Sequence record: MH243438.1
Strand: one strand, 5' to 3'
DNA length: 64,000 bases
Source of the DNA: Escherichia phage vB_EcoM_NBG1
The notes under the pieces are model-generated. The model was not told the origin of the DNA and searched no databases. It worked only from the letters and a program-made list of their open reading frames with translations. Shown in pieces: positions 2,529-33,028 of this stretch. The position numbers and the translations under genes were made by a program. Position 1 is the first letter of the stretch. Every line of letters starts with the position of its first letter.

Positions 2529-3629
2529 TTACGCTGTGAAGATTTTATCCCACATCGCAACAACTGCATCTCGATTATACTTCTTCCATACTGCTTCAGC
2601 ACGTTTAACTCGAGCTTCGTATGTGTCAGTGAATTCTAATACAGCTTTTGTGTAAAGCGCAACTACTTCTTTCTTAGGAGTAGAGGAATCAATTTCTACA
2701 CGCACAGTATCTGGGTCATATTCGAATGTCGCGTGCGGATAATCCTTAAAAACTAACTGAATCACAGGGACACCTTTAGAGATGGCTTCAATAGAACTAT
2801 TCTCTACCGTACCCGTGTCAGGACACGTATTAATAAGTGCTTTAGCTGTTTTAAGACGTTCCATGATTTCACTGTGTGGAGCATCAATAATAACAGGATA
2901 CTTAGCCGGTGGTGCCCATTTACTAGGACAGTATCCTACACCATTTTCGCCTAGTGCTTTAATCGCTTCAAGAGCAACATCAGTACGACGCATTTTAGTG
3001 TCATAACGTTGTGCACTAATAATCAGATCAGTCGCCGTAAGAACTTCAGGTTTATCATTCAAACAAATAACCGGATAATCTTCGGCTTCAAACAACGGAT
3101 TTGCTCGCCAATAATCATAATCAATTTTGTCAGTCAGACCTGAAGTCATATAACAATATTTGCGTTCAAATTCACGGAAGGCTTTAGTAGGAGCATAACT
3201 CTTACCACCGTTCTTATGAATTTGAATAGTCTGGTCCCAAATTTGAACAATGCCACGAGATACCGGTTCAAATGGTGTTGCCATAAAATTCTTATGAACT
3301 TTAGAGAGACCCGCGTCTTTAATTGCCTGAACGGTTAGTTTAGTCGGTTCCATAGTAACAACAAAATCATATTCATGGATGCCGGCTAGTTCAACAATCT
3401 TACGAGCCATAGTATAACTCATACCTAGACTGAATTTAGTCAGATGACCAACAGGATGATGATTAACCTTCCAATCACCAAATGTGTCATTATCAAAACC
3501 GATATAATCAATATCAGCACCGATGGACACAAGATATTTCAACACATTTAAATGTACTGCTTCAAGACCACCTTGTACACGTTCTGGGTTAAATGGGACT
3601 GCACGAGATGGGATAAACATAACTTTCAT
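2529..3629 (-). CDS. putative glycosyltransferase (candidate DNA hmC sugar transferase)
   Basis: 366-aa ORF; N-terminus MKVMFIPSRA..GGLE loosely resembles T4 alpha-glucosyltransferase start; sits in an insert between rIIA.1 and gene 39 that T4 lacks. Confidence 0.55.
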   Translation of the reverse strand: MKVMFIPSRAVPFNPERVQGGLEAVHLNVLKYLVSIGADIDYIGFDNDTFGDWKVNHHPVGHLTKFSLGMSYTMARKIVELAGIHEYDFVVTMEPTKLTVQAIKDAGLSKVHKNFMATPFEPVSRGIVQIWDQTIQIHKNGGKSYAPTKAFREFERKYCYMTSGLTDKIDYDYWRANPLFEAEDYPVICLNDKPEVLTATDLIISAQRYDTKMRRTDVALEAIKALGENGVGYCPSKWAPPAKYPVIIDAPHSEIMERLKTAKALINTCPDTGTVENSSIEAISKGVPVIQLVFKDYPHATFEYDPDTVRVEIDSSTPKKEVVALYTKAVLEFTDTYEARVKRAEAVWKKYNRDAVVAMWDKIFTA

Positions 3630-22122: not shown

Positions 22123-22464
22123 TTAAAAGAATTTAAATTTTTTCTTGGTCCGTTCATTAAAAGCTTGTTGTACTTGCATTGTAACACATTTTTCAACATG
22201 TGGTGCAAGTTCTGCTTTTCTGTCCTGGTCAAGAACTGCAAAGTCCATTACGATTTTACCATCAACCCAGTCTAGTTTTGTAATATAGACTATATGATGG
22301 GAACCGTCTTCAAGTGTAATCAGAATCTCTTGAATGACATTTTCCATTGCTGAACGGACAATTTTAAGAGATTCATTAAACACTCGTTCTTTGCGAATGT
22401 CTTCCCCTTCCGAAGAAGGGGATTCATCAACGATTTCTAGATTCAAATCATCGAGATTATTCAT
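22123..22464 (-). CDS. 40: gene 40-position protein (head vertex assembly chaperone-like)
   Basis: 113 aa from ATG 22464 (MNNLDDL..), overlapping uvsX stop; synteny with T4 gene 40. Confidence 0.5.
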   Translation of the reverse strand: MNNLDDLNLEIVDESPSSEGEDIRKERVFNESLKIVRSAMENVIQEILITLEDGSHHIVYITKLDWVDGKIVMDFAVLDQDRKAELAPHVEKCVTMQVQQAFNERTKKKFKFF

Positions 22465-23629
22465 CGAAATCTTCCATTTCGTCAAGGTCGTTTTCTATAT
22501 CTGCTGCAGACGGAGCATCAGAAGTTTTAACTGGAACCTTAGTTGTTGCTTTGCAATTAATAAGGTCGTTAACAGCGTCATCAACTTCTTTAATAGAAGA
22601 GATAGCACCTAGTTTATATTTAGTTTCAATTGCATCTCGGAAAGGTTTGTGTTTAAACAAAGGTCCCCAGAATTCTACACAATCAGTAGCTTTAGCACGC
22701 CATGATTTTTCTTCACGAATCATTTCGCCTGTTTCTTCGTCAAGGAATTCGCGAGCATACCAACCGGCTTTAGGCTTAACTACAAAACCAATTTCAGTTG
22801 CCATTTCTAACAAGCCACTGAATGGGTCGATACCACCATCGAAATTAACCGTGATTGGGAAAGTAGATTTTTCTTTAACGGTGCGAGATTTTTCTGCTTT
22901 CAACGTGAAGTCATAACCGGTCAATTCTGTACCTTCTTTAACCTGACGTTTAGAGATAAAAAATACCGTGTTGGCAGAATAAAGAATACCTGTACCACCA
23001 CCCATAATCTCTTTAGGATATAGTCCGCCGATTTCCATTGCTGTATGGTTGATTGCAACACATGGAATATCTTTAATAGTCAGATAAGGAGTCACAATGC
23101 GGAACAGAGATTTAAGTGCCTTAGCACGAGACATATCACCTACAACTTTCTCGTTCAATGCATCTTCGGTTTCTTTCTTAGATGCAGTATTACCGATTGA
23201 ATCGATAAAGATAATAACTTTATCACCTCGTTCAATCGCGTCAAGCTGATTAGTCATATCAACTTTAAGTTGTTCGACGGACTGAATTGGTGTATGAACT
23301 ACACGGTCTAAATCAACACCCATTGAACGAAAATAAGATTCCGAAGCACCGAATTCCGAATCATAGAACAAACAGATTGCATCTTTATATTTCTTCATAT
23401 ATGCTGCGACCATAGTTAGTCCAAACAATGTTTTAAAATGTTTAGAAGGTGCAGCAAAAATAGTCAAGCCTGATTGCAATCCTGCATTCAGAGCACCACC
23501 TAGTGCAATATTCAACATCGGAATACGAGTAGGGACTTCATCGCGATTATTAAACAGCTTAGACTTAGTCAAGTCTGCAGTCATTTTAGAAGTAGAAGCT
23601 TTAATCAGACGAGATTTTAAATCAGACAT
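22457..23629 (-). CDS. uvsX: UvsX recombinase (RecA-like)
   Basis: 390 aa; RecA-fold with P-loop-like APSKHFKT; T4 UvsX size and position. Confidence 0.92.
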   Translation of the reverse strand: MSDLKSRLIKASTSKMTADLTKSKLFNNRDEVPTRIPMLNIALGGALNAGLQSGLTIFAAPSKHFKTLFGLTMVAAYMKKYKDAICLFYDSEFGASESYFRSMGVDLDRVVHTPIQSVEQLKVDMTNQLDAIERGDKVIIFIDSIGNTASKKETEDALNEKVVGDMSRAKALKSLFRIVTPYLTIKDIPCVAINHTAMEIGGLYPKEIMGGGTGILYSANTVFFISKRQVKEGTELTGYDFTLKAEKSRTVKEKSTFPITVNFDGGIDPFSGLLEMATEIGFVVKPKAGWYAREFLDEETGEMIREEKSWRAKATDCVEFWGPLFKHKPFRDAIETKYKLGAISSIKEVDDAVNDLINCKATTKVPVKTSDAPSAADIENDLDEMEDFDE

Positions 23630-23727: not shown

Positions 23728-24276
23728 TTAACGAGCCCATTTGATAATTTCTGTAATCAAATCATTACGTTCGCTTGCGTTAAATCCTATAACTTTGTTA
23801 GCACCATCATGATTAAGTAATTGATACGTTTGGATTTCGTTATGAATTGCAAACTCTTCAAAATGTGAAATGACTGTATTAAAACCGAATGAAGACAAAG
23901 TAATAAGGTCGTCTTCAAAACTTTCAGTCATTTCGTTACGTGTTAAAATAATTGTGAACACATCATGGTTTTGGCAAAGACGAACATAATCCTGTTCATA
24001 AACGTCAAGAACCGAGTCCGCATCTTGTCGAATACGTCCATAAACCCAGTTACTAATATATCCACGGTCTAACAGATAAATCTTAGTAGGGTCTAAATAA
24101 TTCAACATTGTTTCGAAACAGCCAACTTCATTTCGAGACTTAACATCGAAACGTCCATCAACTGTTCGTTTAGGGAAATCAATCTTTACATATCTTTCAC
24201 TAATTTCCATTATGTCATTAATGAAAGTTGTTTTACCAGCGTTATCCGGGCCATCTACTAAAATAATTTTAGCCAT
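23728..24276 (-). CDS. P-loop nucleoside/nucleotide kinase-like protein
   Basis: 182 aa; Walker A VDGPDNAGKTT and DRGY motif typical of dNMP/thymidylate-kinase-like enzymes; sits where T4 has beta-gt. Confidence 0.6.
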   Translation of the reverse strand: MAKIILVDGPDNAGKTTFINDIMEISERYVKIDFPKRTVDGRFDVKSRNEVGCFETMLNYLDPTKIYLLDRGYISNWVYGRIRQDADSVLDVYEQDYVRLCQNHDVFTIILTRNEMTESFEDDLITLSSFGFNTVISHFEEFAIHNEIQTYQLLNHDGANKVIGFNASERNDLITEIIKWAR

Positions 24277-24277
24277 T

Positions 24278-25177
24278 TTATTCCTCGATTACGACATCTT
24301 CGTATTTAGGTATATTATACGGTGAAGAAATTAAAGCATTAAAGTAGATGAACTCACCAAGACCTGGATGAAATACTTCTTCAGGATTTTCGAAATATTG
24401 AATCTTCGGACGTCCTTTAAGAATTTGATAGTACTCAGTTTTAGTTGGTTTAAAAATTCTAATCAGCGCTTCTTCAGGATACTTATTTCTGTCAAAGCTA
24501 TTATTTGGATCGGTTATATAAAGCGGTTGACCTAATTGAATTGCGCATTCAACCACTTGTTCAAAACGATAACATGGGTCACTAATTCGAAATGGATGAA
24601 AAATACCATCTAGATGAATAGGAGCCAAATCACCTACAAGACGCTGCATGATGGAAGGACGTATAACTTTCTGCGTTACGATAATCTTATTACCATCTGC
24701 ACCTGCGTTAACCAGCACTTCTTTTTGACGTTCATTCAACACAGTAGTTTGAAGTGAACGATTAACCGACAACATGTCGGTTTTTAAGAATTCGTCAATA
24801 TAAAAACGTGGTTTATTAGGGTCTGCAGTGATATTGAAATTGAATTCTACATCAAAAGCGCCGTCATATCCGGTGATATCTGTGATTAGAAAATCACAAT
24901 CATAATAAGCAATTAATGAATCAACCACAAATTCATTTTCAGACCAGAAATATTTACGAGTGTTATACGCGTTATCTTTATACCATAATGGAACAAACTT
25001 AAATTCCGGGAAAAGACGTTCGCATTCTTTAATATCAGATGCATTACGTGGATATGTAATCACATCACCTGGATTAGCACGGTGCAAATGAAGTTGGAAG
25101 TTGCCATCCTTAAGGATAGCATACTGTCCAGTTTCATAAGACCGCATACTCAAAATAGGTACGCGGAAAATAGCCAT
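24278..25177 (-). CDS. hypothetical protein (beta-gt syntenic position)
   Basis: 299-aa ORF between the P-loop kinase and gene 42; no confident motif. Confidence 0.6.
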   Translation of the reverse strand: MAIFRVPILSMRSYETGQYAILKDGNFQLHLHRANPGDVITYPRNASDIKECERLFPEFKFVPLWYKDNAYNTRKYFWSENEFVVDSLIAYYDCDFLITDITGYDGAFDVEFNFNITADPNKPRFYIDEFLKTDMLSVNRSLQTTVLNERQKEVLVNAGADGNKIIVTQKVIRPSIMQRLVGDLAPIHLDGIFHPFRISDPCYRFEQVVECAIQLGQPLYITDPNNSFDRNKYPEEALIRIFKPTKTEYYQILKGRPKIQYFENPEEVFHPGLGEFIYFNALISSPYNIPKYEDVVIEE

Positions 25178-25893
25178 TAGTCAAGGAATCCTTTAACATA
25201 ATCAAAATCACGTTCAAACACATGGGCACTTACCATGGTATGAGTATAATCACCAACTTCTACACCACATTCGTTAGCGATATAATGAAGTAATTTTCCT
25301 TGGAGATAAAAATCCAACTGCATAACAACAGCACAGTTCTGAGAACGCATATGACAGTGGGTATAAAGCTTACCATCACGAATATAATAAGTCACTGAGT
25401 CAGTACATGGATATTCAAGCGTTTCGTCTGAATCAAGCAAAGCCTGATCAGAACTTTCTAGAATTTGGAACACAACTCTTCGGGAGTTAGGCTTCTCTTT
25501 AAGTTCTTTTAGAAGAGCTGGTAATTGGGCCGCAATGCGAGGACCATAGAAAGTGTTGAAGTTCGCCGGCAAAACATCTGATTTTGGTTTAGAAATAAAT
25601 TTAGCGACATTAGGATATGCCTTAAACGCTTCTTCTGCGTTGGTACCACCAGAAATCATAAACTTCCAGAAATCTTCAGCATATTCATAAGAGATGCGGT
25701 TAATACGTGGGTCGGTCATTTTGAATGTTGACGGAGTGTCAACAACTACTGTCATAGACCCAATTTCATTACAACGTCCAATACGAGAATCAGTTACGAA
25801 TTCCGGGTTTTCTAAAATTTCACGATTGACTGCTTTAAATGCGGCTTGAAAATCTGCGGCTTTGATATATTTCATTGTGTTATGTTTTCCCAT
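25177..25893 (-). CDS. 42: dCMP hydroxymethylase
   Basis: 238 aa; thymidylate-synthase-like, active-site region EYPCTDS; T4 gp42 position. Confidence 0.85.
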   Translation of the reverse strand: MGKHNTMKYIKAADFQAAFKAVNREILENPEFVTDSRIGRCNEIGSMTVVVDTPSTFKMTDPRINRISYEYAEDFWKFMISGGTNAEEAFKAYPNVAKFISKPKSDVLPANFNTFYGPRIAAQLPALLKELKEKPNSRRVVFQILESSDQALLDSDETLEYPCTDSVTYYIRDGKLYTHCHMRSQNCAVVMQLDFYLQGKLLHYIANECGVEVGDYTHTMVSAHVFERDFDYVKGFLD

Positions 25894-25934
25894 GTTTACC
25901 TCAATACAGTTATTATATACTCAATTCATAAAGC

Positions 25935-26174
25935 TTATTTGAATTTCTTAGTGATGTTGATATAACGTAGAGCTTCGGCATCGATACTTCCAAGAACACT
26001 ATGAAGAAATGCATCAGCGTAGTATTCCAATTGAACAGGTTCTTTAATCACTTTAGCCGCTTTGGTTTCAAACAGGCCCATAAGGGCCTTTTTAAGAATT
26101 TGTTCATTAGTGTTCAGTTTCATAGTCAAAATCTCTTCATTAAGTTGGTGGTTAAAAGTTTTTCTAGAAATCAT
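25935..26174 (-). CDS. hypothetical protein
   Basis: 79-aa ORF, start overlaps stop of the 386-aa gene. Confidence 0.5.
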   Translation of the reverse strand: MISRKTFNHQLNEEILTMKLNTNEQILKKALMGLFETKAAKVIKEPVQLEYYADAFLHSVLGSIDAEALRYINITKKFK

Positions 26175-27331
26175 TCCGGGTACCTCAAAGCGTCATCAGA
26201 GTTAGTTATATCAATAATAGATATAGAGTTTTCTGCTAACCCATTTTTAGATAACTGACGTTTATAATATCTTTCACAATATGTACACGTCGTCCCGCAG
26301 ATTTCATTAGCACAATCGAAATCTGGATGTCTGAACCACCTTTTTTCTAAAAAGCCATCTAACAAAGAGGTTTCAATATTTACTGTATGTGAAAACTCGG
26401 TCTCATTTTCAAGAGTGAAAATGGTCTCTAAAGGCTTCCACAATTCCAACAAATTACCTTCAAACTTTTCAGAAGCATAAGCTTCAAGAACTTTCAAAAT
26501 GTAGTCGGTGCTACCTGTACGTCCTGAAACTTTGAATTGAGTGATACCAATATCATTATAAAGTTTCAAATCTTGAGGACGAACAAAACGAGTTCTCAAC
26601 CAGTTAAATGGGTCTGTATCACGAGCTTTAATGCAGTGTTGCATTGGATATCCATTTAAGGATTTGGCATCATCTACTGTAACATCGGTGCTATGGAAAA
26701 TATAGCAAGAGTCACGATAGCTACAATGTGTTGTATACCCTTTACCAGCATTAGAACAGAACTCATTTACAAGAACTTCAAATATTATATTGTTCTTATT
26801 GCAAAACTCTGCTGCACGCTTCAGGAAAGAAACCGAACGGTTCTTATGAATTCCGCAACAGACTTTTTTGATGTTATATTGGTCATGCAAGTATTTGATT
26901 TGAGTTACAGCATCAACATGTAGAATTGTTGAAACTTCAATCTCAATGTCTTTATTGACTTCACGAACAATTTCCATAACAACAGGATTAGCGATAGTAA
27001 TACGCCATACGCCTATTGACCAAAGATACTGAACATAATCCTGAATAGCTTTCTTCTTCCACTCAACTAGTTCTCTTTTTGAACCAGGATTTATCGTGTT
27101 GAGTGTATAGTTAAAGCAAATACCTAATTCGTTACAACGTTTAACATAATCTTCTAACATCTTTTTGTCAACGTCAGGAAGCCTAAAATCAGGTCTGGCT
27201 GCTACAAAAGCCATTTCTCTTGTAGAGCCATATACTTCGTTTATCAAGCTATTAGGATAAGTTTTATTGAGCTCTACGATTTTATCAAGAAGAGCTAAAT
27301 CAAAATTCGTTCCGATTTTAAAAGTATTCAT
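26171..27331 (-). CDS. Cys-rich hypothetical enzyme (candidate Fe-S/metal-binding protein)
   Basis: 386 aa; Cys clusters CCGIH, FCSNAGKGYTTHCSYRDSC and C-terminal CANEICGTTCTYC (CX3CX-aromatic-C pattern); inside the sugar module. Confidence 0.65.
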   Translation of the reverse strand: MNTFKIGTNFDLALLDKIVELNKTYPNSLINEVYGSTREMAFVAARPDFRLPDVDKKMLEDYVKRCNELGICFNYTLNTINPGSKRELVEWKKKAIQDYVQYLWSIGVWRITIANPVVMEIVREVNKDIEIEVSTILHVDAVTQIKYLHDQYNIKKVCCGIHKNRSVSFLKRAAEFCNKNNIIFEVLVNEFCSNAGKGYTTHCSYRDSCYIFHSTDVTVDDAKSLNGYPMQHCIKARDTDPFNWLRTRFVRPQDLKLYNDIGITQFKVSGRTGSTDYILKVLEAYASEKFEGNLLELWKPLETIFTLENETEFSHTVNIETSLLDGFLEKRWFRHPDFDCANEICGTTCTYCERYYKRQLSKNGLAENSISIIDITNSDDALRYPE

Positions 27332-27387
27332 TTTTTTGCATCTCGCGTTAATTGATGCGATGGTTTTTGCAGGTCTTACTTAAATTA

Positions 27388-27789
27388 TTATAGATTCGGT
27401 TTATATGATTTAAATGTTTCGAATTCGCCTTTATTCATAAGAGCTTTGAATTCGTCAGGACGCATAGCTTTGTCGTCGATAATCCAATCATATACTGGTT
27501 TATGTGTTAGCAAATTATGGTACTTCAAGCCAATGTTTGCCAAGTTCTGAATCAGACTCGGGAGAATGTCAATTGCTATACGACCAGGACCTACTGACTT
27601 CATACCACGAGCAGTGTAAAGCGTTATGGTATGCCCTGCATCATACAGGGCATTAATGGCAGACACCATTTCGACGTCTGGTTTGAAGTTCACGTAATCA
27701 CGATTGTTATTCCACTCTGTTATACAATCATCGACATCAAAACAAAGATTAAGCATGTTTTCTACACGGTGCATTAGATTCGTTCCCAT
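27388..27789 (-). CDS. HAD-superfamily phosphatase (KdsC-like small sugar-phosphate phosphatase)
   Basis: 133 aa; HAD motif I FDVDDCIT, motif II TITLYTAR, motif III/IV K..IIDDKA. Confidence 0.7.
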   Translation of the reverse strand: MGTNLMHRVENMLNLCFDVDDCITEWNNNRDYVNFKPDVEMVSAINALYDAGHTITLYTARGMKSVGPGRIAIDILPSLIQNLANIGLKYHNLLTHKPVYDWIIDDKAMRPDEFKALMNKGEFETFKSYKPNL

Positions 27790-29459
27790 TGATGAGTGAT
27801 ATCGCCACCGATTGGACGATAGGAAACACCAGTTTCTTTATCAGTTAGTACCCATTTACCAGGATTTTTTGTAATCAGAGTAGCCGTTACAGGTTCTGCT
27901 ACGTCATAACTAATAGAGCCGTCTTGAAGTACACGGCCCATGTTACGTAATTGCTTAGTCAGAAGTTCCATACCTTTATAATATGCGGCTACCGCTTTAA
28001 GTGGATTATTCTTGAAATAACCACCTAATGCAATCCAGATAATTGCTACAGCCAAATGATGATATTCATTAAACGAACTCAGCTTTCCATATTTGTAAAC
28101 TAATGGATTGATGTTAATAGTCACATTACAAGTTGTTTCATCAATAGTAAACTGTCCCCAGGTCGGATTAGCGTTGAATTCATCATAACCTGAAACAGCG
28201 TAAAGCACTTTAGCTTCATCATACAATTTTGGCCCGTAAATCTTGGTTTCACCAAAATATCCACGAGGGTCGATAAACTTGACTTCGCCATTATCAGTAA
28301 TCATAGTATTACTGAAGTTCGGGTCGCCATGAATAACAGAGTACTGTCCCTGAGAACGGTTATGATAACGAATAAGGTGTTCTAAAGCTTGTTTCAGCAT
28401 TGGCTTCAGACGTCCAATCTTAGTGTAGTTCACATGTGTGATTTTACCAAATGAATCAATCAACGGTTGAATGCTTTCACAACGATCAATAACTTTCGTA
28501 TAGAATTCTTTAGTGAAATCACGACGAACAGTTTCAGGACTTACAAAATAAGTGTCTGTGCTGAATTTCAGTGCATCTAAAATTGCATCAACAATTTGTG
28601 GACGAGCAAGACTTGATTTGGATTTAATATATTCAAATGCTGGCTTACCTTTAATGCGTTCCATTTCAAAGTTATTTTCATTAACAGAAACTAACTGAGG
28701 AACTGAATCTGATTTCACTTTCAAATACCACGAAATCTCATCTTTCTGAAGAGCTCGTCCCTGTTCGGTTAATGCGAATTTAGTTACAGTTTCTTCACCA
28801 ATTTCAACTGCATTAAAACTACGATTAAGTTCACGAACTTCATGAGCCTTTTCAAGTTTAGGCATATCACCTAAATCAATTAGATTCATAAGCTCTGATT
28901 TATTGAATGCGCCACTGTAAAGGAATTCTACGAAATCACGTCCTTTGCAGTATTCATGAATTTCCTCATCAGTAGAACCCATGTAGAATTCCCAGTCTTT
29001 GAACTGGTAAATTCCCACAACATTACCGCCTGTTGCACCTACATTAGTGATATTTTCACCGTCGAAATTATATCGACATTCGTCACCCTTAACATAGATT
29101 GCGTTAACATTCCAAGACCATGAACCAAAATCGGGAATAATATCACACCAGTTAACAATTACGTTATGGCCGTCTAAATCTTTGTGTAATTTAGCAAGAG
29201 CATAAGCAGAACCATACGCTTCATCAACTGTACGAATAGTCACATTGAACCCTTCTTGCTCGCAATAAGCTCGAACAGTTTCAGCAAATTTTGAATGAAC
29301 TACTACAATAATTTCATCTGCGCCAAGGCCAGAATAAATTGTATACAAATTGCTCAGAATAGTGTCTTGTTTATAGTTAACAAGCACCTTAGGAATATGA
29401 TGCGTTATTGGATACAAACGAGTCGCCAGTCCAGCACCAAGAATAACAGCTTTTTTCAT
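27774..29459 (-). CDS. bifunctional sugar-1-phosphate nucleotidyltransferase / sugar kinase
   Basis: 561 aa; N-terminal ILGAGLATRLYPIT..PK nucleotidyltransferase signature; C-terminal APH/choline-kinase-like VIHGDPNFSNT..FIDPRGYFG. Confidence 0.8.
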   Translation of the reverse strand: MKKAVILGAGLATRLYPITHHIPKVLVNYKQDTILSNLYTIYSGLGADEIIVVVHSKFAETVRAYCEQEGFNVTIRTVDEAYGSAYALAKLHKDLDGHNVIVNWCDIIPDFGSWSWNVNAIYVKGDECRYNFDGENITNVGATGGNVVGIYQFKDWEFYMGSTDEEIHEYCKGRDFVEFLYSGAFNKSELMNLIDLGDMPKLEKAHEVRELNRSFNAVEIGEETVTKFALTEQGRALQKDEISWYLKVKSDSVPQLVSVNENNFEMERIKGKPAFEYIKSKSSLARPQIVDAILDALKFSTDTYFVSPETVRRDFTKEFYTKVIDRCESIQPLIDSFGKITHVNYTKIGRLKPMLKQALEHLIRYHNRSQGQYSVIHGDPNFSNTMITDNGEVKFIDPRGYFGETKIYGPKLYDEAKVLYAVSGYDEFNANPTWGQFTIDETTCNVTININPLVYKYGKLSSFNEYHHLAVAIIWIALGGYFKNNPLKAVAAYYKGMELLTKQLRNMGRVLQDGSISYDVAEPVTATLITKNPGKWVLTDKETGVSYRPIGGDITHQWERI

Positions 29460-29500
29460 GTTGAAGTCCTCATTGGTAAGTAGGAGTATTGTACACTATT

Positions 29501-29644
29501 CTAGTTAAAGCATTCATACTTTGCTTGTAGTCCAATCATAATCCATCCAATTACAAGTGTTGGAATCATTACTGGAGCCGTTAAGCTCCAGTAGATAGTC
29601 ATGACAAGCATCAATAGTAAAAGTCCTATTGTTATTGCTTTCAT
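29501..29644 (-). CDS. small membrane protein (47 aa)
   Basis: manually translated MKAITIGLLLLMLVMTIYWSLTAPVMIPTLVIGWIMIGLQAKYECFN; ATGA overlap with the isomerase stop. Confidence 0.35.
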   Translation of the reverse strand: MKAITIGLLLLMLVMTIYWSLTAPVMIPTLVIGWIMIGLQAKYECFN

Positions 29645-30276
29645 TGTTCGCCTCGTAACATGGCACCTAGTGCACCGCCTGGATGGAACTTAAGGAAATC
29701 ATTAGAGGTAAATCCACGTTCAGACGAAAGGTTGATAGCGAACGTATCGATAAGCGCTAACAACAATGTAGTAGACATTGTCGGAGCTAAAGAGTTCTCG
29801 TCAACTTCTACCGCGATACCGGTACAGAACGTATAATCAAAAAGAGCTTCGTATTCTTGTGGAATGTCAGGGTTACAATGTAACAGAATCTGTTTAACCT
29901 GAGGACGAATCATACGAAGATGTTTAGCAACACCTATCATTTCTTCAGTCTTACCAGAACGACTGATGTGAACTAATACATCATTAGGTGCAATAAATCC
30001 TGCGTCACCATGAGAATAATGCCCAGTGTTCAAGTACATACTTGGGATACCGAGTGAAGCAAAAGTCTCGGAAGCTTTAGTTGCGATATTAGCGTTCTTA
30101 CCAACACCTGTAATAATTACTCGGCTTTCATAATTACTAAGTCCCGGGCGTCGAAGAGTTTCTAGAATAGCATTATAACGAGCAGGGTTTTGACTAATTA
30201 CTTTAGCCATAGTGGCAAGAGATGAAGCTTGTTTTACGATTGCGTCAATAGCGATAGTGATTGGTGTAGTTTTCAT
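29641..30276 (-). CDS. D-arabinose-5-phosphate isomerase (SIS domain only, KdsD/GutQ-like)
   Basis: 211 aa; ITGVGKNANIATKASETFASLGIPS, ISRSGKTEE and FHPGGALG align with remembered E. coli KdsD SIS domain; no CBS domains. Confidence 0.85.
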   Translation of the reverse strand: MKTTPITIAIDAIVKQASSLATMAKVISQNPARYNAILETLRRPGLSNYESRVIITGVGKNANIATKASETFASLGIPSMYLNTGHYSHGDAGFIAPNDVLVHISRSGKTEEMIGVAKHLRMIRPQVKQILLHCNPDIPQEYEALFDYTFCTGIAVEVDENSLAPTMSTTLLLALIDTFAINLSSERGFTSNDFLKFHPGGALGAMLRGEQ

Positions 30277-30316
30277 ATTTCTCTCATTTAATTAGTTGGC
30301 CGTCCTTGGCATTATA

Positions 30317-33028
30317 TCAAAAATCAAACATATCGAACAGAGATGCTTTCTTCTCGTAATCGAGTTTAGCTGCTGATGTGAATCCTTCAAGTGGTTTAAT
30401 AAATGTCTTCTCAAGGAGAACAGTGTAGTCCATCCAATGAAGTACGTCGTCTTTAATTAAATCTGTGATTTCAGTACCAGAAGGCCATGCGATACATTTA
30501 TCACCGAATGGGTTTCCTTCACGTAAAGGCAGAACATATACTTTTTCACCTTCTACAACTTGTGGTGCATCAATATTACCTTTGATAGCTCGGTTATACG
30601 TCAGAATTCCACGAATATGGAACGGGCATTTAGGACCCGGGAATCCACCTACGTCGTATTTAGCAATGTTATTCGCAGAAGATACCGACGCGATGCTAAT
30701 ATAATTCAATTGACGGAATTCTTTTTCAAACTCTTTAAAATATTCTTGTAATGATTCTTCACCTTCTTGAAGCATACGACGAATACATTCTTTAAGAGCT
30801 TTCTGTACTGCTTTAGGAGTCGAAGATTTCTGAGTCTCTAGACCCATGATTTTGAGTTTAGGCTCAGCGTAACGAGTGCCTTCCATATCCCACACGTTTA
30901 ATGCATAACGTTTCTTACCAGTCCAGAATCCACCAATACCTTTAGAACCGAGCGGAGGACCAGCGATAGCTTCTCGGTCCATGAACATTAAGTGTTGTTT
31001 ATTGTTCATGTATTCACACATTTCACGGAAACCTTTATCAATAGCTGGTTCCATACGTTCACGTGCAAACTTATCTAAGAAGTCTACCCAATGGTTGGTA
31101 TCACGGAATTTAGATTCACCAACCTTATCAATAATTTTATCAGCAGATACGTAAATAGAGTCTGTATCACCATATAGAACGAAAGCTTCGCCTTCTGTAC
31201 CACAAACTTCATTCAGATATTCATTAACTTTACGTTCAATCCACTGTAAAGCCATTTGTCCGAATGTTGTGATTGCAGTAGCATTACGCAAATCGTAATA
31301 ACGGAACCATACGTTACCAAGTGCACCATAAAGCGAGTTGATAAGCAATTTACGGTTAATTTGTGCAGTCATACCTGCAACTTCAGTACGTTGAGCTCTG
31401 AACAACATTTCATTAAGAGATTTAGCAGACAACTTTTTAATCTTTTCTTTAATCTCATCACTGAAGTCGAAACGATAATCAACATCTAATGGTTCGTCAA
31501 CAGAAAGATTAGGATTATGCAATGCCTCTTTAATTATTTCACAATTACGTTGAGCTGCAAGCATGTAACCTTTATGTTCTTTACGTTGGTTAAAGACCTT
31601 AGTGATTTCAGTTGGAACTACACCATCACGGTCTTTATAATACATCATGCCGTTAGGAGAGCAACTGTACACATCTGAAGGACGTTCAGCGATTGCGTTA
31701 ATATAATCATGCAGTGGAGCTACTTTAAACGTTCCTGCTATTGTTTCCGGGCTAATATTCACTTGGCGAATAATACTTGGATACAGAGATGTAAGGTCGA
31801 AACTCATTACATATTTGTATCGATTTGGAATAGGTTCCTTAACAAAAGCGCCAGGATAAGGTTGAACCGGGTGAGAACGACCTTGTGGAATCACCTTGTT
31901 CTGCTCTTTAAGGCTATTAAAAATAATAGCATCCCATGTTTTAATTGGGCTAAACACAGATTGAATCTGTATCTTAGCATAATAACCCATGTCCAAACTC
32001 AAGTTGATGAACTGACGCTTAGCATCAATTTGCAATACACGATACACGTCGATAATGTTATAAGAAATATATCGTTGGTGATTGCTTTCACGAAGCTTAG
32101 AAATAGGGCCGTCATATTTCAGTTTACCAACGTTCAATTCAAATTCTGAAATGTAATCCAGAGAATACGACGGTTGATTGGTAAAAGAGAATTTTTTGTA
32201 AAGGTCAATGTAATCAAGAACAGAGATACCGAACAATGTAATGATTTCACGAGAACCATACATGTTTTCGATAACTTTAACACGAGTTTTACGATGTGGC
32301 GATAAACGTTTCGCAGTAGATTCGCCAAAAATATTCTTGATTCGGTTATACACATATGGAATATCAAATGACTCAACGTTCCATCCAGTCAAAATGACAG
32401 GAGTTTTCTGTTGCCAGAAGTTGAGATATTCCATCAATAATTCTTTTTCATTATCAAACGGCATATAAACAATTTTGTCGATAATTTCGGATGGAACTTC
32501 ATCACCACCTTGTTCTTGAAGCTTAGCAGCGATTTCAATAGACCATTCTTCTACATTACCGTATGGAGAATTCAATAGATCAAATACGTAGAACCTGTCA
32601 TCAATTGAGTCATAATGGGTGATAGCATCAATCGGATGTTTTGCTTGTGACGGCTCAGGGAACCCGTCCGGAGATGTTACTTCGATGTCGAAGTTAGCCA
32701 CACGAATTTTTGTATGGTCATATTTGATTTCATAGTTATAAGTGTCAGACAAATACGCCAATTTGAAATCGTCCATGCCAAGTGCTTCAAGTCCGATATC
32801 TTCCATGCGTTTAATCCATTGGGAAGCATCACGCATATTAGCGAACAGCTTACGAGTACACGGCTTACCGTAGATATCGAAATATTTCGTAGCCTGACTT
32901 TCTGGACAATGAGCAAACAGTGATGGTTTATATTCTACTTCACGAGTACGTTCACGGCCATTAGAATCGATGTAACGTTCAAAAATTGAATCACCAATCT
33001 GTTCAACCGTTAAGTAAAATTCTTTCAT
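30317..33028 (-). CDS. 43: DNA polymerase (family B)
   Basis: 903 aa; exonuclease motif FDIE and polymerase motif YGDTDS; T4 gp43 size. Confidence 0.95.
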   Translation of the reverse strand: MKEFYLTVEQIGDSIFERYIDSNGRERTREVEYKPSLFAHCPESQATKYFDIYGKPCTRKLFANMRDASQWIKRMEDIGLEALGMDDFKLAYLSDTYNYEIKYDHTKIRVANFDIEVTSPDGFPEPSQAKHPIDAITHYDSIDDRFYVFDLLNSPYGNVEEWSIEIAAKLQEQGGDEVPSEIIDKIVYMPFDNEKELLMEYLNFWQQKTPVILTGWNVESFDIPYVYNRIKNIFGESTAKRLSPHRKTRVKVIENMYGSREIITLFGISVLDYIDLYKKFSFTNQPSYSLDYISEFELNVGKLKYDGPISKLRESNHQRYISYNIIDVYRVLQIDAKRQFINLSLDMGYYAKIQIQSVFSPIKTWDAIIFNSLKEQNKVIPQGRSHPVQPYPGAFVKEPIPNRYKYVMSFDLTSLYPSIIRQVNISPETIAGTFKVAPLHDYINAIAERPSDVYSCSPNGMMYYKDRDGVVPTEITKVFNQRKEHKGYMLAAQRNCEIIKEALHNPNLSVDEPLDVDYRFDFSDEIKEKIKKLSAKSLNEMLFRAQRTEVAGMTAQINRKLLINSLYGALGNVWFRYYDLRNATAITTFGQMALQWIERKVNEYLNEVCGTEGEAFVLYGDTDSIYVSADKIIDKVGESKFRDTNHWVDFLDKFARERMEPAIDKGFREMCEYMNNKQHLMFMDREAIAGPPLGSKGIGGFWTGKKRYALNVWDMEGTRYAEPKLKIMGLETQKSSTPKAVQKALKECIRRMLQEGEESLQEYFKEFEKEFRQLNYISIASVSSANNIAKYDVGGFPGPKCPFHIRGILTYNRAIKGNIDAPQVVEGEKVYVLPLREGNPFGDKCIAWPSGTEITDLIKDDVLHWMDYTVLLEKTFIKPLEGFTSAAKLDYEKKASLFDMFDF

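What the first reader, a model, noticed from the sequence alone, without database searches (positions are those of the whole stretch)
27774..29459. Unusual fused nucleotidyltransferase plus anomeric-kinase architecture
A single 561-aa polypeptide combines an N-terminal RmlA/GlmU-like sugar-1-P nucleotidyltransferase signature with a C-terminal protein-kinase-like/APH-type phosphotransferase (HGD..N..D.RGYFG). This domain order resembles salvage enzymes such as AmgK-MurU or eukaryotic kinase/pyrophosphorylase fusions. It implies the pathway goes through a free sugar and 1-phosphorylation rather than a mutase.
Basis: seen in the sequence. Interest (0 to 1): 0.6.

Follow-up and report, generated by a model that had tools for sequence, protein, structure and literature searches.

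The report
Phage UDP-arabinose kinase-pyrophosphorylase fusion enzyme

Summary
The 561-aa ORF is real and intact at 27774-29459, on the minus strand. The window is a Mosigvirus (RB69-like) genome. The protein is 98.8% identical to RB69 ORF53_52c (gp52:53) and 96% identical to its syntenic counterpart in phage HY126. Lee et al. 2026 (NAR) summarise He et al. [quoted passage not shown]

The gene sits between a KdsD-like arabinose-5-P isomerase and an overlapping mini-HAD phosphatase. All four activities are fused in single 890-955-aa proteins elsewhere.

The inference of a free-sugar intermediate is contradicted by the reported route: Ara5P, then Ara-1,5-P2, then Araf-1-P, then UDP-Araf. This parallels the GmhA/HldE/GmhB ADP-heptose pathway. 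I know that biochemistry only second-hand.

Verdict: already known, low interest. Side observations are the wide cellular and giant-virus distribution of the module, and a conserved U32-family neighbour.

The parts
27774..29459 (-). Complete gene for the 561-aa bifunctional enzyme (orthologue of RB69 ORF53_52c / gp52:53 and of the HY126 protein taken to be AfhE)
   Evidence: ORF listing and translation; 98.8% identity to RB69 (H44); 540/562 identical to HY126 XAN60479.1; phrog_4098 at E 6.6e-294
28848..29459 (-). N-terminal sugar-1-phosphate nucleotidyltransferase domain, residues about 1-204 (predicted UDP-D-arabinofuranose pyrophosphorylase)
   Evidence: Pfam NTP_transferase E 8.3e-10; best PDB sequence hit LicC 1jyk at E 6.7e-5; Foldseek hits to RmlA, MurU, LicC, HddC and GMPP at E about 1e-8; invariant G9, R13, L14, K23, D105, D194, G196, D197
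27942..28847 (-). APH/choline-kinase-fold kinase domain, residues 205-506 (reported D-arabinose-5-phosphate 1-kinase)
27777..27941 (-). C-terminal 55-residue tail (507-561), clade-specific, role unknown
   Evidence: Lower pLDDT, 72-83; present only in T4-like phage homologues and close metagenomic relatives, absent from more distant ones
27388..27789 (-). Mini-HAD phosphatase (RB69 gp51 / AfhF-like), reported to remove the 5-phosphate from arabinose 1,5-bisphosphate; its start overlaps the kinase gene's stop
   Evidence: DxDxT motif CFDVDDCIT; NCBIfam TIGR01689 capsule biosynthesis phosphatase at E 4.3e-13, below the family cut-off; ATG 16 nt upstream of the stop plus an in-frame TAATG overlap, and HY126 annotates the latter start; function from Lee 2026
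29641..30276 (-). SIS-domain arabinose-5-phosphate isomerase (KdsD/GutQ-like; RB69 gp55), supplies Ara5P from ribulose 5-phosphate
   Evidence: Pfam SIS E 8.2e-10; NCBIfam KpsF/GutQ 8.8e-32 and KdsD 3.8e-30, both below equivalog cut-offs because the CBS half is missing
29501..29644 (-). 47-aa hydrophobic ORF between the isomerase and the bifunctional gene (bas46_0147 homologue), function unknown
   Evidence: ORF listing; annotated as hypothetical in Bas46 and HY126
26171..27331 (-). U32-family protein (RB69 gp50), role in the pathway unassigned
   Evidence: Pfam Peptidase_U32 E 6.3e-11; weak UbiU match at 4.8e-4; 221 phage records, all at least 82% identical
25177..25893 (-). Thymidylate-synthase homologue = 5-hydroxy-dCMP synthase (RB69 gp48), makes the acceptor base
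   Evidence: Pfam Thymidylat_synt E 2.3e-15; function shown experimentally for RB69 gp48 in Lee 2026
24278..25177 (-). Putative DNA arabinosyltransferase 1 (RB69 gp46:47 homologue), consumer of UDP-Araf
   Evidence: Position and synteny with Bas46, HY126 and RB69; no Pfam match, so assigned by synteny and literature only
2529..3629 (-). Arabinosyltransferase 2 (RB69 ORF003c homologue)
   Evidence: 361/366 identical to RB69 ORF003c; function proposed in Thomas 2018 and Lee 2026

Best explanation
The gene encodes the AfhE-type bifunctional enzyme of the phage pathway that makes UDP-D-arabinofuranose, the donor for arabinosylating 5-hydroxycytosine in phage DNA.

Proposed sequence of steps:
1. 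The adjacent SIS isomerase converts host ribulose 5-phosphate to D-arabinose 5-phosphate.
2. The C-terminal APH-fold kinase domain uses ATP to phosphorylate C1, giving arabinofuranose 1,5-bisphosphate.
3. The translationally coupled mini-HAD phosphatase removes the 5-phosphate.
4. The N-terminal RmlA/LicC-like domain condenses Araf-1-P with UTP to give UDP-Araf.
5. The GT-B arabinosyltransferases at 24278-25177 and 2529-3629 use UDP-Araf on DNA.

Shown here: the two folds, their catalytic residues, orthology, synteny and the gene fusions. Taken from the literature (second-hand): the substrates and the order of steps. My inference: phosphorylating C1 while the 5-phosphate is still in place locks the sugar in the furanose ring, because a blocked O5 cannot close a pyranose. 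That would explain why the route uses neither a free sugar nor a mutase.
For: Orthology: 96% identity (540/562) and identical gene order with HY126; 98.8% identity to RB69 ORF53_52c.

Literature: Lee et al. [quoted passage not shown] RB69 DNA carries arabinosylated 5-hydroxycytosine, and UDP-Araf works as a donor in vitro. The 54%-identical Thanatos homologue is essential for propagation.

Structure: full-length AF2 model with pLDDT 92.3 and pTM 0.89. The N-terminal domain matches RmlA, MurU, LicC and HddC. The C-terminal domain matches APH/choline-kinase-fold kinases, including the anomeric kinases maltokinase, MtnK and NahK.

Catalytic residues: GxGxxTRL, the PK lysine and the DxGD motif are invariant in the transferase. 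The beta3 Lys226, alphaC Glu240, HGD378, N383 and D396 are invariant in the kinase.

Context: SIS isomerase upstream and an overlapping HAD phosphatase downstream.

Rosetta-stone fusions: HAD-SIS-NT-kinase on single chains of 890-955 aa.

Conserved linkage: the SIS-GT-NTK-HAD-ThyA module on a jumbo-phage contig, and a SIS gene adjacent in 35 of 80 bacterial or archaeal loci.
Against: The substrate assignment (Ara5P rather than free arabinose) and the UTP specificity come from Lee et al.'s summary of He et al. 2026, which I could not read. That HY126 XAN60479.1 is 'AfhE' is inferred from synteny and from Lee et al.'s stated equivalence; the GenBank record names it only as a hypothetical protein.

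Table 1 of Lee et al. still labels the phosphatase 'dephosphorylates Araf5p to Ara' and the kinase 'phosphorylates Ara to Araf1p'.

Pfam kinase matches for this protein are all below threshold.

The purified Thanatos homologue showed no nucleotidyltransferase activity with xylose-1-phosphate. That is expected if the enzyme is specific for Araf-1-P, but it remains a negative result.

Nothing computed here discriminates between the two possible orders of the kinase and phosphatase steps.
Confidence: 0.88

Rival explanations
1. Free-sugar salvage-type route: the HAD phosphatase first hydrolyses arabinose 5-phosphate to free D-arabinose, the kinase domain then phosphorylates the free sugar at C1, and the transferase domain makes UDP-arabinose.
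For: The same three genes and the same net ATP cost fit this order, and gene context cannot distinguish the two. Table 1 of Lee et al. 2026 carries exactly these labels. The closest-fold anomeric kinases (NahK, maltokinase, AmgK-type) act on unphosphorylated sugars.
Against: The text of Lee et al. 2026, citing He et al., states that AfhE is a D-arabinose 5-phosphate kinase giving Araf-1,5-P2 and that AfhF dephosphorylates that bisphosphate. From general carbohydrate chemistry, free D-arabinose is mainly pyranose in solution whereas the product is a furanose. The isomerase-kinase-phosphatase-transferase logic has a precedent in GmhA/HldE/GmhB. Lee et al. report that the phosphatase model resembles a heptose-1,7-bisphosphate 7-phosphatase.
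Confidence: 0.08
2. The protein is itself a glycosyltransferase that transfers the pentose to DNA or a nucleotide. This is the GT-A reading of the N-terminal domain, favoured for TH1_060 in the Thanatos paper and initially considered for RB69.
For: CDD placed the N-terminus in the GT-A superfamily. The Thanatos authors keep it as a glycosyltransferase candidate.
Against: The N-terminal domain carries the nucleotidyltransferase signature GxGxxTRL...PK and matches RmlA, MurU and LicC rather than GT-A transferases. No transfer to DNA, dCMP, dCTP or cytosine was seen with TH1_060. It scored poorly against glycosyltransferase HMMs in Thomas 2018. Separate GT-B arabinosyltransferases exist in the genome, and homologous GTs of phage DLP3 were shown to work in vitro.
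Confidence: 0.02
3. A LicC-LicA-like enzyme that activates a non-sugar alcohol (for example choline or ethanolamine to the CDP-alcohol), unrelated to DNA modification.
For: The best PDB sequence hit of the N-terminal domain is LicC. LicA and choline or ethanolamine kinases are among the top structural matches of the C-terminal domain. One homologue is labelled 'choline kinase' by its source.
Against: Identities to these are only 10-20%. Tight and widely conserved linkage and fusion with a sugar-phosphate isomerase and a phosphatase argue against it. The gene lies within the arabinosyl-5hoC cluster, and arabinose-related activity is reported for the HY126 enzyme.
Confidence: 0.01

Closest known systems
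AfhE of Escherichia phage HY126 / RB69 gp52:53 (ORF53_52c) / DLP3 gp82
   Same: Same protein family and architecture, with 96%, 98.8% and about 56-57% identity respectively (the last figure is from close DLP3 relatives). Same neighbours (SIS isomerase, mini-HAD AfhF, ThyA-like 5hodCMP synthase, arabinosyltransferases). Same reported role in UDP-Araf synthesis.
   Different: Nothing of substance: 22 substitutions or indels relative to HY126, clustered around residues 241-265. The gene is intact here, whereas the RB69 GenBank record splits it through a sequencing error.
GmhA / HldE (or HldA+HldC) / GmhB ADP-heptose pathway
   Same: Identical pathway logic: a SIS isomerase makes an aldose phosphate, a kinase phosphorylates the anomeric carbon to give a bisphosphate, a HAD phosphatase removes the distal phosphate, and a nucleotidyltransferase makes the NDP-sugar. 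The kinase and transferase are fused on one chain in HldE (my knowledge of the pathway; parallel also drawn).
   Different: Non-homologous catalytic domains and reversed order. HldE is an N-terminal PfkB/ribokinase-fold kinase plus a C-terminal cytidylyltransferase-fold adenylyltransferase. This protein is an N-terminal RmlA/LicC-fold transferase plus a C-terminal APH-fold kinase, and no PfkB or CTP_transf_like match was found. The sugar is a pentofuranose, not a heptose, and the nucleotide is UDP, not ADP.
   Same: Same two folds: an APH-type anomeric sugar kinase and an RmlA-like uridylyltransferase. MurU structures are among the top matches of the N-terminal domain (also Lee 2026).
   Different: As far as I recall, AmgK and MurU are separate proteins in Pseudomonas and act on a free, unphosphorylated sugar. 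The NCBIfam MurU equivalog scores 23.5 bits against a cut-off of 250. No isomerase or phosphatase partners are involved.
LicC + LicA (CDP-choline pathway; fused as LicCA in Treponema denticola, from memory)
   Different: The substrate is choline, not a sugar phosphate. Identity is only about 12-19%. The nucleotide is CTP.
5-methylthioribose kinase MtnK, N-acetylhexosamine 1-kinase NahK, maltokinase
   Different: Stand-alone kinases without a transferase domain. Identity is 8-16%. Their substrates are not phosphorylated.
FKP (L-fucokinase/GDP-fucose pyrophosphorylase)
   Same: A single chain with an N-terminal pyrophosphorylase and a C-terminal anomeric kinase (from memory).
   Different: Its kinase has the GHMP fold, not the APH fold, and it acts on a free sugar in salvage. 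No GHMP match here.

Membership tests
AfhE-type Ara5P kinase / UDP-Araf pyrophosphorylase (phrog_4098) | Full-length sequence membership and orthology with the characterised phage enzyme | tested here: met
   phrog_4098 residues 1-561 at E 6.6e-294; 96% identity to the HY126 protein; 98.8% to RB69 ORF53_52c
AfhE-type Ara5P kinase / UDP-Araf pyrophosphorylase (phrog_4098) | N-terminal sugar-1-P nucleotidyltransferase fold with GxGxxTRL, a catalytic Lys and metal-binding Asp residues | tested here: met
   Pfam PF00483 above threshold; Foldseek hits to RmlA, MurU and LicC; invariant G9, R13, L14, K23, D105, D194, D197
AfhE-type Ara5P kinase / UDP-Araf pyrophosphorylase (phrog_4098) | C-terminal APH/eukaryotic-like kinase fold with Lys-Glu pair, HGD...N catalytic loop and a Mg-binding Asp | tested here: met
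AfhE-type Ara5P kinase / UDP-Araf pyrophosphorylase (phrog_4098) | Embedded in the arabinosyl-5hoC cluster (A5P isomerase, AfhF-like phosphatase, 5hodCMP synthase, arabinosyltransferases) | tested here: met
AfhE-type Ara5P kinase / UDP-Araf pyrophosphorylase (phrog_4098) | Enzymatic activities: Ara5P to Ara-1,5-P2, and Araf-1-P plus UTP to UDP-Araf | not testable with these tools
   Reported for HY126 AfhE by He et al. 2026, as summarised in Lee et al. 2026. The primary paper is not held.
[quoted passage not shown] | Score at or above the NCBIfam equivalog cut-off | tested here: not met
   NF045761 scores 23.5 bits against a cut-off of 250; NF045697 scores 18.2 against 370. Only fold-level resemblance.
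HldE (bifunctional heptose kinase/adenylyltransferase) | PfkB/ribokinase-fold kinase domain and cytidylyltransferase-fold transferase domain | tested here: not met
   No PfkB or CTP_transf_like match in Pfam or NCBIfam. The folds found are RmlA-like and APH-like.
GlmU (label used in several phage GenBank records) | Left-handed beta-helix acetyltransferase domain and a GlmU equivalog score | tested here: not met
   TIGR01173 scores 21.1 bits against a cut-off of 366.85, matching residues 3-106 only. The C-terminal half is a kinase fold, not a beta-helix.
Pfam APH (PF01636) phosphotransferase family | Score at or above the Pfam gathering threshold | tested here: not met
   14.4 bits against 23.2 for this protein. 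Some homologues pass, for example Trichodesmium at 32.1 bits and P0051, P0055, P0056. This is therefore a divergent branch of the same fold.

The most novel reading that the evidence does not exclude
The SIS isomerase, transferase-kinase and mini-HAD module is not limited to phage DNA modification. It may be a widespread, largely unannotated route to an NDP-pentofuranose (probably UDP-D-arabinofuranose) in cells and large viruses.

The supporting observations are: adjacency of a SIS gene in 35 of 80 bacterial and archaeal loci; a complete three-gene set in Trichodesmium erythraeum; and single-chain HAD-SIS-NT-kinase fusions in a giant-virus-like contig and a eukaryotic transcriptome.

This would point to D-arabinofuranose-type glycans, made independently of the actinobacterial decaprenyl-phospho-arabinose route, in many lineages. 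He et al. 2026 or Mahler et al. 2025, which I could not read, may already have noted this.
Probability: 0.3. Interest if true: 0.45.

Novelty: already known. Interest (0 to 1): 0.15.

Why it matters
UDP-D-arabinofuranose is not a normal enterobacterial metabolite, so the phage has to bring its own pathway. This enzyme catalyses two of the four steps. Arabinosylated 5-hydroxycytosine is reported to protect phage DNA from type II restriction enzymes, the Brig1 glycosylase and type I CRISPR-Cas. The 54%-identical homologue is essential in phage Thanatos.

For this window the practical value is correct annotation. Many GenBank records still call the gene 'hypothetical' or 'GlmU'. It should be named a bifunctional D-arabinose-5-phosphate 1-kinase / UDP-D-arabinofuranose pyrophosphorylase. 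The wider distribution of the module in cellular genomes and giant-virus-like contigs is the only part that might lead somewhere new.

Tried and rejected
1. Plus-strand reading of the stated coordinates: full of stop codons. The gene is on the minus strand.

2. Looked for a solved structure of the enzyme itself: none. The best PDB sequence hit is LicC at E 6.7e-5.

3. Tried to read the primary biochemistry (He et al. 2026) and Mahler et al. 2025: neither is held. Searches for AfhE/AfhF, arabinofuranosylation and HY126 found only Lee et al. 2026. The Durham Collection and T4 glucosyltransferase papers add no enzymology.

4. Promoter and terminator scan of 25000-30500: 13 promoter-like sites against 17.6 expected, and 4 terminator-like sites against 2.4 expected. 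No usable signal.

5. Pfam on the two putative arabinosyltransferases and the phosphatase: no matches. These are assigned by NCBIfam, synteny and the literature instead.

6. BLASTP of the Trichodesmium 131-aa ORF against the phage phosphatase: not significant, E 0.16. Only the HAD motif pattern is shared, so that link is suggestive rather than proven.

7. tblastn for HAD partners in the 80 cellular loci found essentially none, probably because these small HADs are too divergent. I could not quantify HAD linkage.

8. I could not inspect model coordinates, so I could not test whether the invariant basic residues R212, R325, R398, K416 and K487 form a 5-phosphate pocket. That test would have addressed the free-sugar question directly.

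9. GlmU, MurU, HldE and FKP membership was considered and rejected.
Full report
**1. Observation**

The coordinates 27774-29459 hold one uninterrupted ORF of 561 codons, but on the minus strand. The plus-strand translation is full of stops. A GAGGA Shine-Dalgarno sequence lies 8 nt upstream of the ATG.

The N-terminus reads MKKAVILGAGLATRLYPITHHIPKVLV and matches Pfam NTP_transferase above threshold (residues 3-99, E 8.3e-10). By sequence alone the kinase half gives only sub-threshold Pfam matches (Fructosamin_kin 0.0034, RIO1 0.0087, APH 0.033). The kinase call therefore needed an independent test.

The protein matches phrog_4098 ('unknown function') over its full length at E 6.6e-294.

**2. 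What the window is**

The region is 98% identical at the DNA level to many Mosigvirus (RB69-like T-even) phages. The protein is 98.8% identical to RB69 ORF052c+ORF053c and 96% identical (540/562) to the syntenic HY126 protein XAN60479.1.

All neighbouring genes are on the minus strand, running from DNA polymerase gene 43 towards uvsX:
- DNA polymerase, 30317-33028
- SIS isomerase, 29641-30276
- a 47-aa hydrophobic ORF, 29501-29644
- the 561-aa gene, 27774-29459
- a 133-aa HAD phosphatase, 27388-27789
- a U32-family protein, 26171-27331
- a ThyA homologue, 25177-25893
- a 299-aa protein, 24278-25177
- a small nucleotide kinase, 23728-24276
- UvsX, 22457-23629

The phosphatase start overlaps the kinase gene's stop, either through the ATG 16 nt upstream or through an in-frame TAATG. 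HY126 annotates the latter start. This suggests translational coupling.

**3. What is already published**

Thomas et al. 2018 (PMC6024577) showed that RB69 ORF053c and ORF052c are one 561-residue gene split by a sequencing error. They expressed it, noted its 'complex domain structure' and proposed a role in UDP-arabinose synthesis together with the SIS protein ORF055c. The Bas46 GenBank record annotates the orthologue as 'putative enzyme involved in UDP-arabinose biosynthesis'.

Lee et al. 2026 (PMC13326640) showed that RB69 DNA carries mono- and di-arabinosylated 5-hydroxycytosine. They modelled gp52:53 as an N-terminal nucleotidyltransferase plus a C-terminal kinase. They also summarise He et al. 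[quoted passage not shown]

I could not obtain He et al. or Mahler et al. 2025. The enzymology is therefore second-hand.

In Shewanella phage Thanatos the 54%-identical TH1_060 is essential for propagation and was inactive with xylose-1-phosphate.

**4. Independent tests made here**

*Alignment.* An alignment of 35 homologues down to 28% identity has two sets of invariant residues. In the transferase half these are G9, R13, L14, K23, D105, D194, G196 and D197: the GxGxxTRL loop, the PK lysine and a DxGD motif. In the kinase half they are K226, E240, G377, D378, N383, D396, P397, R398 and G399: the Lys-Glu pair, the HGD...N catalytic loop and the metal-binding Asp. H376 is conserved in at least 90%.

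*Full-length model.* AlphaFold2 with this alignment gave pLDDT 92.3 and pTM 0.89. Foldseek against the PDB matched the N-terminal part to RmlA, MurU, LicC, HddC and GDP-mannose pyrophosphorylases at E about 1e-8. The C-terminal part matched APH(2'')-IIa.

*Domain limits.* Transferase about 1-204, kinase 205-506, and a 55-residue tail (507-561) of lower confidence that occurs only in the T4-like clade and close metagenomic relatives.

**5. Context and fusion evidence**

Distant homologues (31-35% identity) occur as 890-955-aa single chains with the order HAD phosphatase, SIS isomerase, nucleotidyltransferase, kinase. Sixteen of the best 150 representatives in the exhaustive search are 887-1,011 aa with the match at the C-terminal end, consistent with that architecture.

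One such fusion lies on a contig with MutS7-HNH, RNA polymerase Rpb2 and RNA_pol_N genes, which is typical of giant viruses. Another comes from a eukaryotic transcriptome.

A 350-kb jumbo-phage contig keeps the module SIS, GT2, transferase-kinase, HAD and ThyA-like.

In species-representative bacterial and archaeal genomes, 80 loci encode the fused protein at 23-30% identity. In 35 of them a SIS homologue is directly adjacent.

In Trichodesmium erythraeum IMS101 the order is a KpsF-type SIS+CBS isomerase, then the fused protein (APH 32.1 bits, above threshold), then an overlapping 131-aa ORF with HAD motifs DIDGV, LLTAR and NDKKP. BLASTP of that ORF against the phage phosphatase is not significant.

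These fusions and linkages show independently that the isomerase, kinase, phosphatase and transferase act in one pathway. They do not fix the order of the kinase and phosphatase steps.

**6. Mechanism**

The best-supported scheme has these steps:
1. Ribulose-5-P to Ara5P (SIS isomerase)
2. Ara5P to Araf-1,5-P2 (kinase domain, ATP)
3. Araf-1,5-P2 to Araf-1-P (mini-HAD phosphatase)
4. Araf-1-P to UDP-Araf (transferase domain, UTP)
5. UDP-Araf to DNA-bound 5hoC (arabinosyltransferases at 24278-25177 and 2529-3629; the latter is 99% identical to RB69 ORF003c)

The folds, residues, orthology and linkage are shown here.

My own inference, from carbohydrate chemistry, is that a 5-phosphorylated pentose can only cyclise as a furanose. 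Phosphorylating C1 before removing the 5-phosphate therefore fixes the furanose ring required in UDP-Araf. This would explain why the route avoids both a free sugar and a mutase.

This is the logic of the ADP-heptose pathway (GmhA, HldE, GmhB), carried out with non-homologous kinase and transferase folds and the opposite domain order.

**7.

The architecture, the anomeric kinase, the absence of a mutase and D-arabinose as the sugar are all right. The inference of a free-sugar intermediate is not supported by the reported biochemistry, although Table 1 of Lee et al. still carries such labels and nothing I computed excludes it. I give it 0.08.

AmgK-MurU is a fair fold-level comparator but the protein is not a member: the MurU equivalog scores 23.5 bits against a cut-off of 250. 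The GlmU labels in several GenBank records are wrong, since only residues 3-106 match and there is no beta-helix domain.

**8. Novelty and score**

This is an orthologue of a published enzyme that is reported to be biochemically characterised, and the fused architecture was first described in 2018. Novelty: already known. Interest: 0.15.

The residual novelty lies in the breadth of the module outside phages (section 5), which the papers I could not read may already cover.

**9. Side observations**

The U32-family neighbour (26171-27331) is far more conserved than the transferase-kinase. It is at least 82% identical in all 221 phage records, whereas the transferase-kinase falls to 54% in Shewanella phage Thanatos. 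Every host genus named in the output is a facultative anaerobe. It is not among the named host groups for Acinetobacter phages, although 57 Acinetobacter phage records carry the transferase-kinase and the DLP3 cluster has no U32 gene.

From my own knowledge, U32 proteins include the O2-independent hydroxylases RlhA (ho5C in rRNA), TrhP (ho5U in tRNA) and UbiU/V. The phage ThyA-like 5hodCMP synthase needs O2 and a flavin. A possible anaerobic route to 5hoC is an untested idea. No held paper links U32, 5-hydroxycytosine and phage.

Noticed in passing
window 26171-27331 (-): The U32-family protein (RB69 gp50) next to the pathway genes is at least 82% identical across 221 phage records. All host genera named in the output are facultative anaerobes (Escherichia, Klebsiella, Shigella, Serratia, Proteus, Yersinia, Enterobacter, Providencia, Edwardsiella, Shewanella). 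It is not among the named groups for Acinetobacter phages, which do carry the transferase-kinase. The U32 family includes O2-independent hydroxylases (RlhA for ho5C, TrhP for ho5U, UbiU/V), whereas the phage 5hodCMP synthase needs O2. It might provide an anaerobic route to 5-hydroxycytosine. Lee 2026 lists it only as 'sugar or heterocycle reductase'.
   Followed up: partly
P0084 on L002 8001-10781; also P0088, P0089, P0091, P0092, P0095, P0108: Four-domain single-chain fusions (HAD phosphatase, SIS isomerase, nucleotidyltransferase, APH kinase; 890-955 aa). One lies on a contig with MutS7-HNH, Rpb2 and RNA_pol_N genes, which looks like a giant virus. One comes from a eukaryotic transcriptome (EukProt). 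Related proteins of 786-790 aa carry a C-terminal extension, with a weak cupin/mannose-6-P-isomerase-like match in one, instead.
   Followed up: partly
L072 4798-7856 (Trichodesmium erythraeum IMS101) and 34 other loci among L008-L087: Bacterial and archaeal genomes (CPR bacteria, Micrarchaeota, Thermoplasmata, cyanobacteria, Sutterella, Helicobacter, Campylobacter, Clostridia) encode the fused transferase-kinase at 23-30% identity. A SIS isomerase gene is adjacent in 35 of 80 loci. In Trichodesmium an overlapping 131-aa mini-HAD-like ORF follows.
   Followed up: partly
window 27777-27941 (-), residues 507-561: A 55-residue C-terminal tail with the conserved pattern T..ITK.P.KW.L.D.ETG..Y.P......W is present only in T4-like phage homologues and close metagenomic relatives. 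It has lower pLDDT (72-83) and no assigned role.
   Followed up: partly
window 29501-29644 (-): A 47-aa strongly hydrophobic ORF (MKAITIGLLLLMLVMTIYWSLTAPVMIPTLVIGWIMIGLQAKYECFN) whose start overlaps the SIS gene's stop (ATGA). It is conserved and annotated as hypothetical in Bas46 and HY126. It is possibly a small membrane protein sitting inside a sugar-nucleotide operon.
   Followed up: no
L011 8302-9387 (Oscillospiraceae MAG contig) and L008 (167-kb contig of a 'bacterium' bin): Two contigs filed under bacterial genome bins look like phage DNA. L008 carries SIS, NTK, HAD and ThyA in the T4-like order at 54% identity. L011 has a U32 gene matching the window's at E 2e-116 next to SIS and NTK genes.
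   Followed up: no
window 24278-25177 (-); homologue TH1_063 of phage Thanatos: The 299-aa protein assigned as arabinosyltransferase 1 (RB69 gp46:47) appears, by size and cluster position, to correspond to the 300-aa TH1_063. The Thanatos paper reports TH1_063 as a UDP-xylose pyrophosphorylase, which conflicts with the GT-B glycosyltransferase assignment in Lee 2026. No Pfam match here.
   Followed up: no
GenBank records listed: The orthologous gene is variously annotated as 'bifunctional protein GlmU', 'mannose-1-phosphate guanyltransferase', 'nucleotidyltransferase' or 'hypothetical protein'. The SIS gene is sometimes annotated as 'phosphoheptose isomerase'. None of these labels reflects the reported function.
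   Followed up: yes
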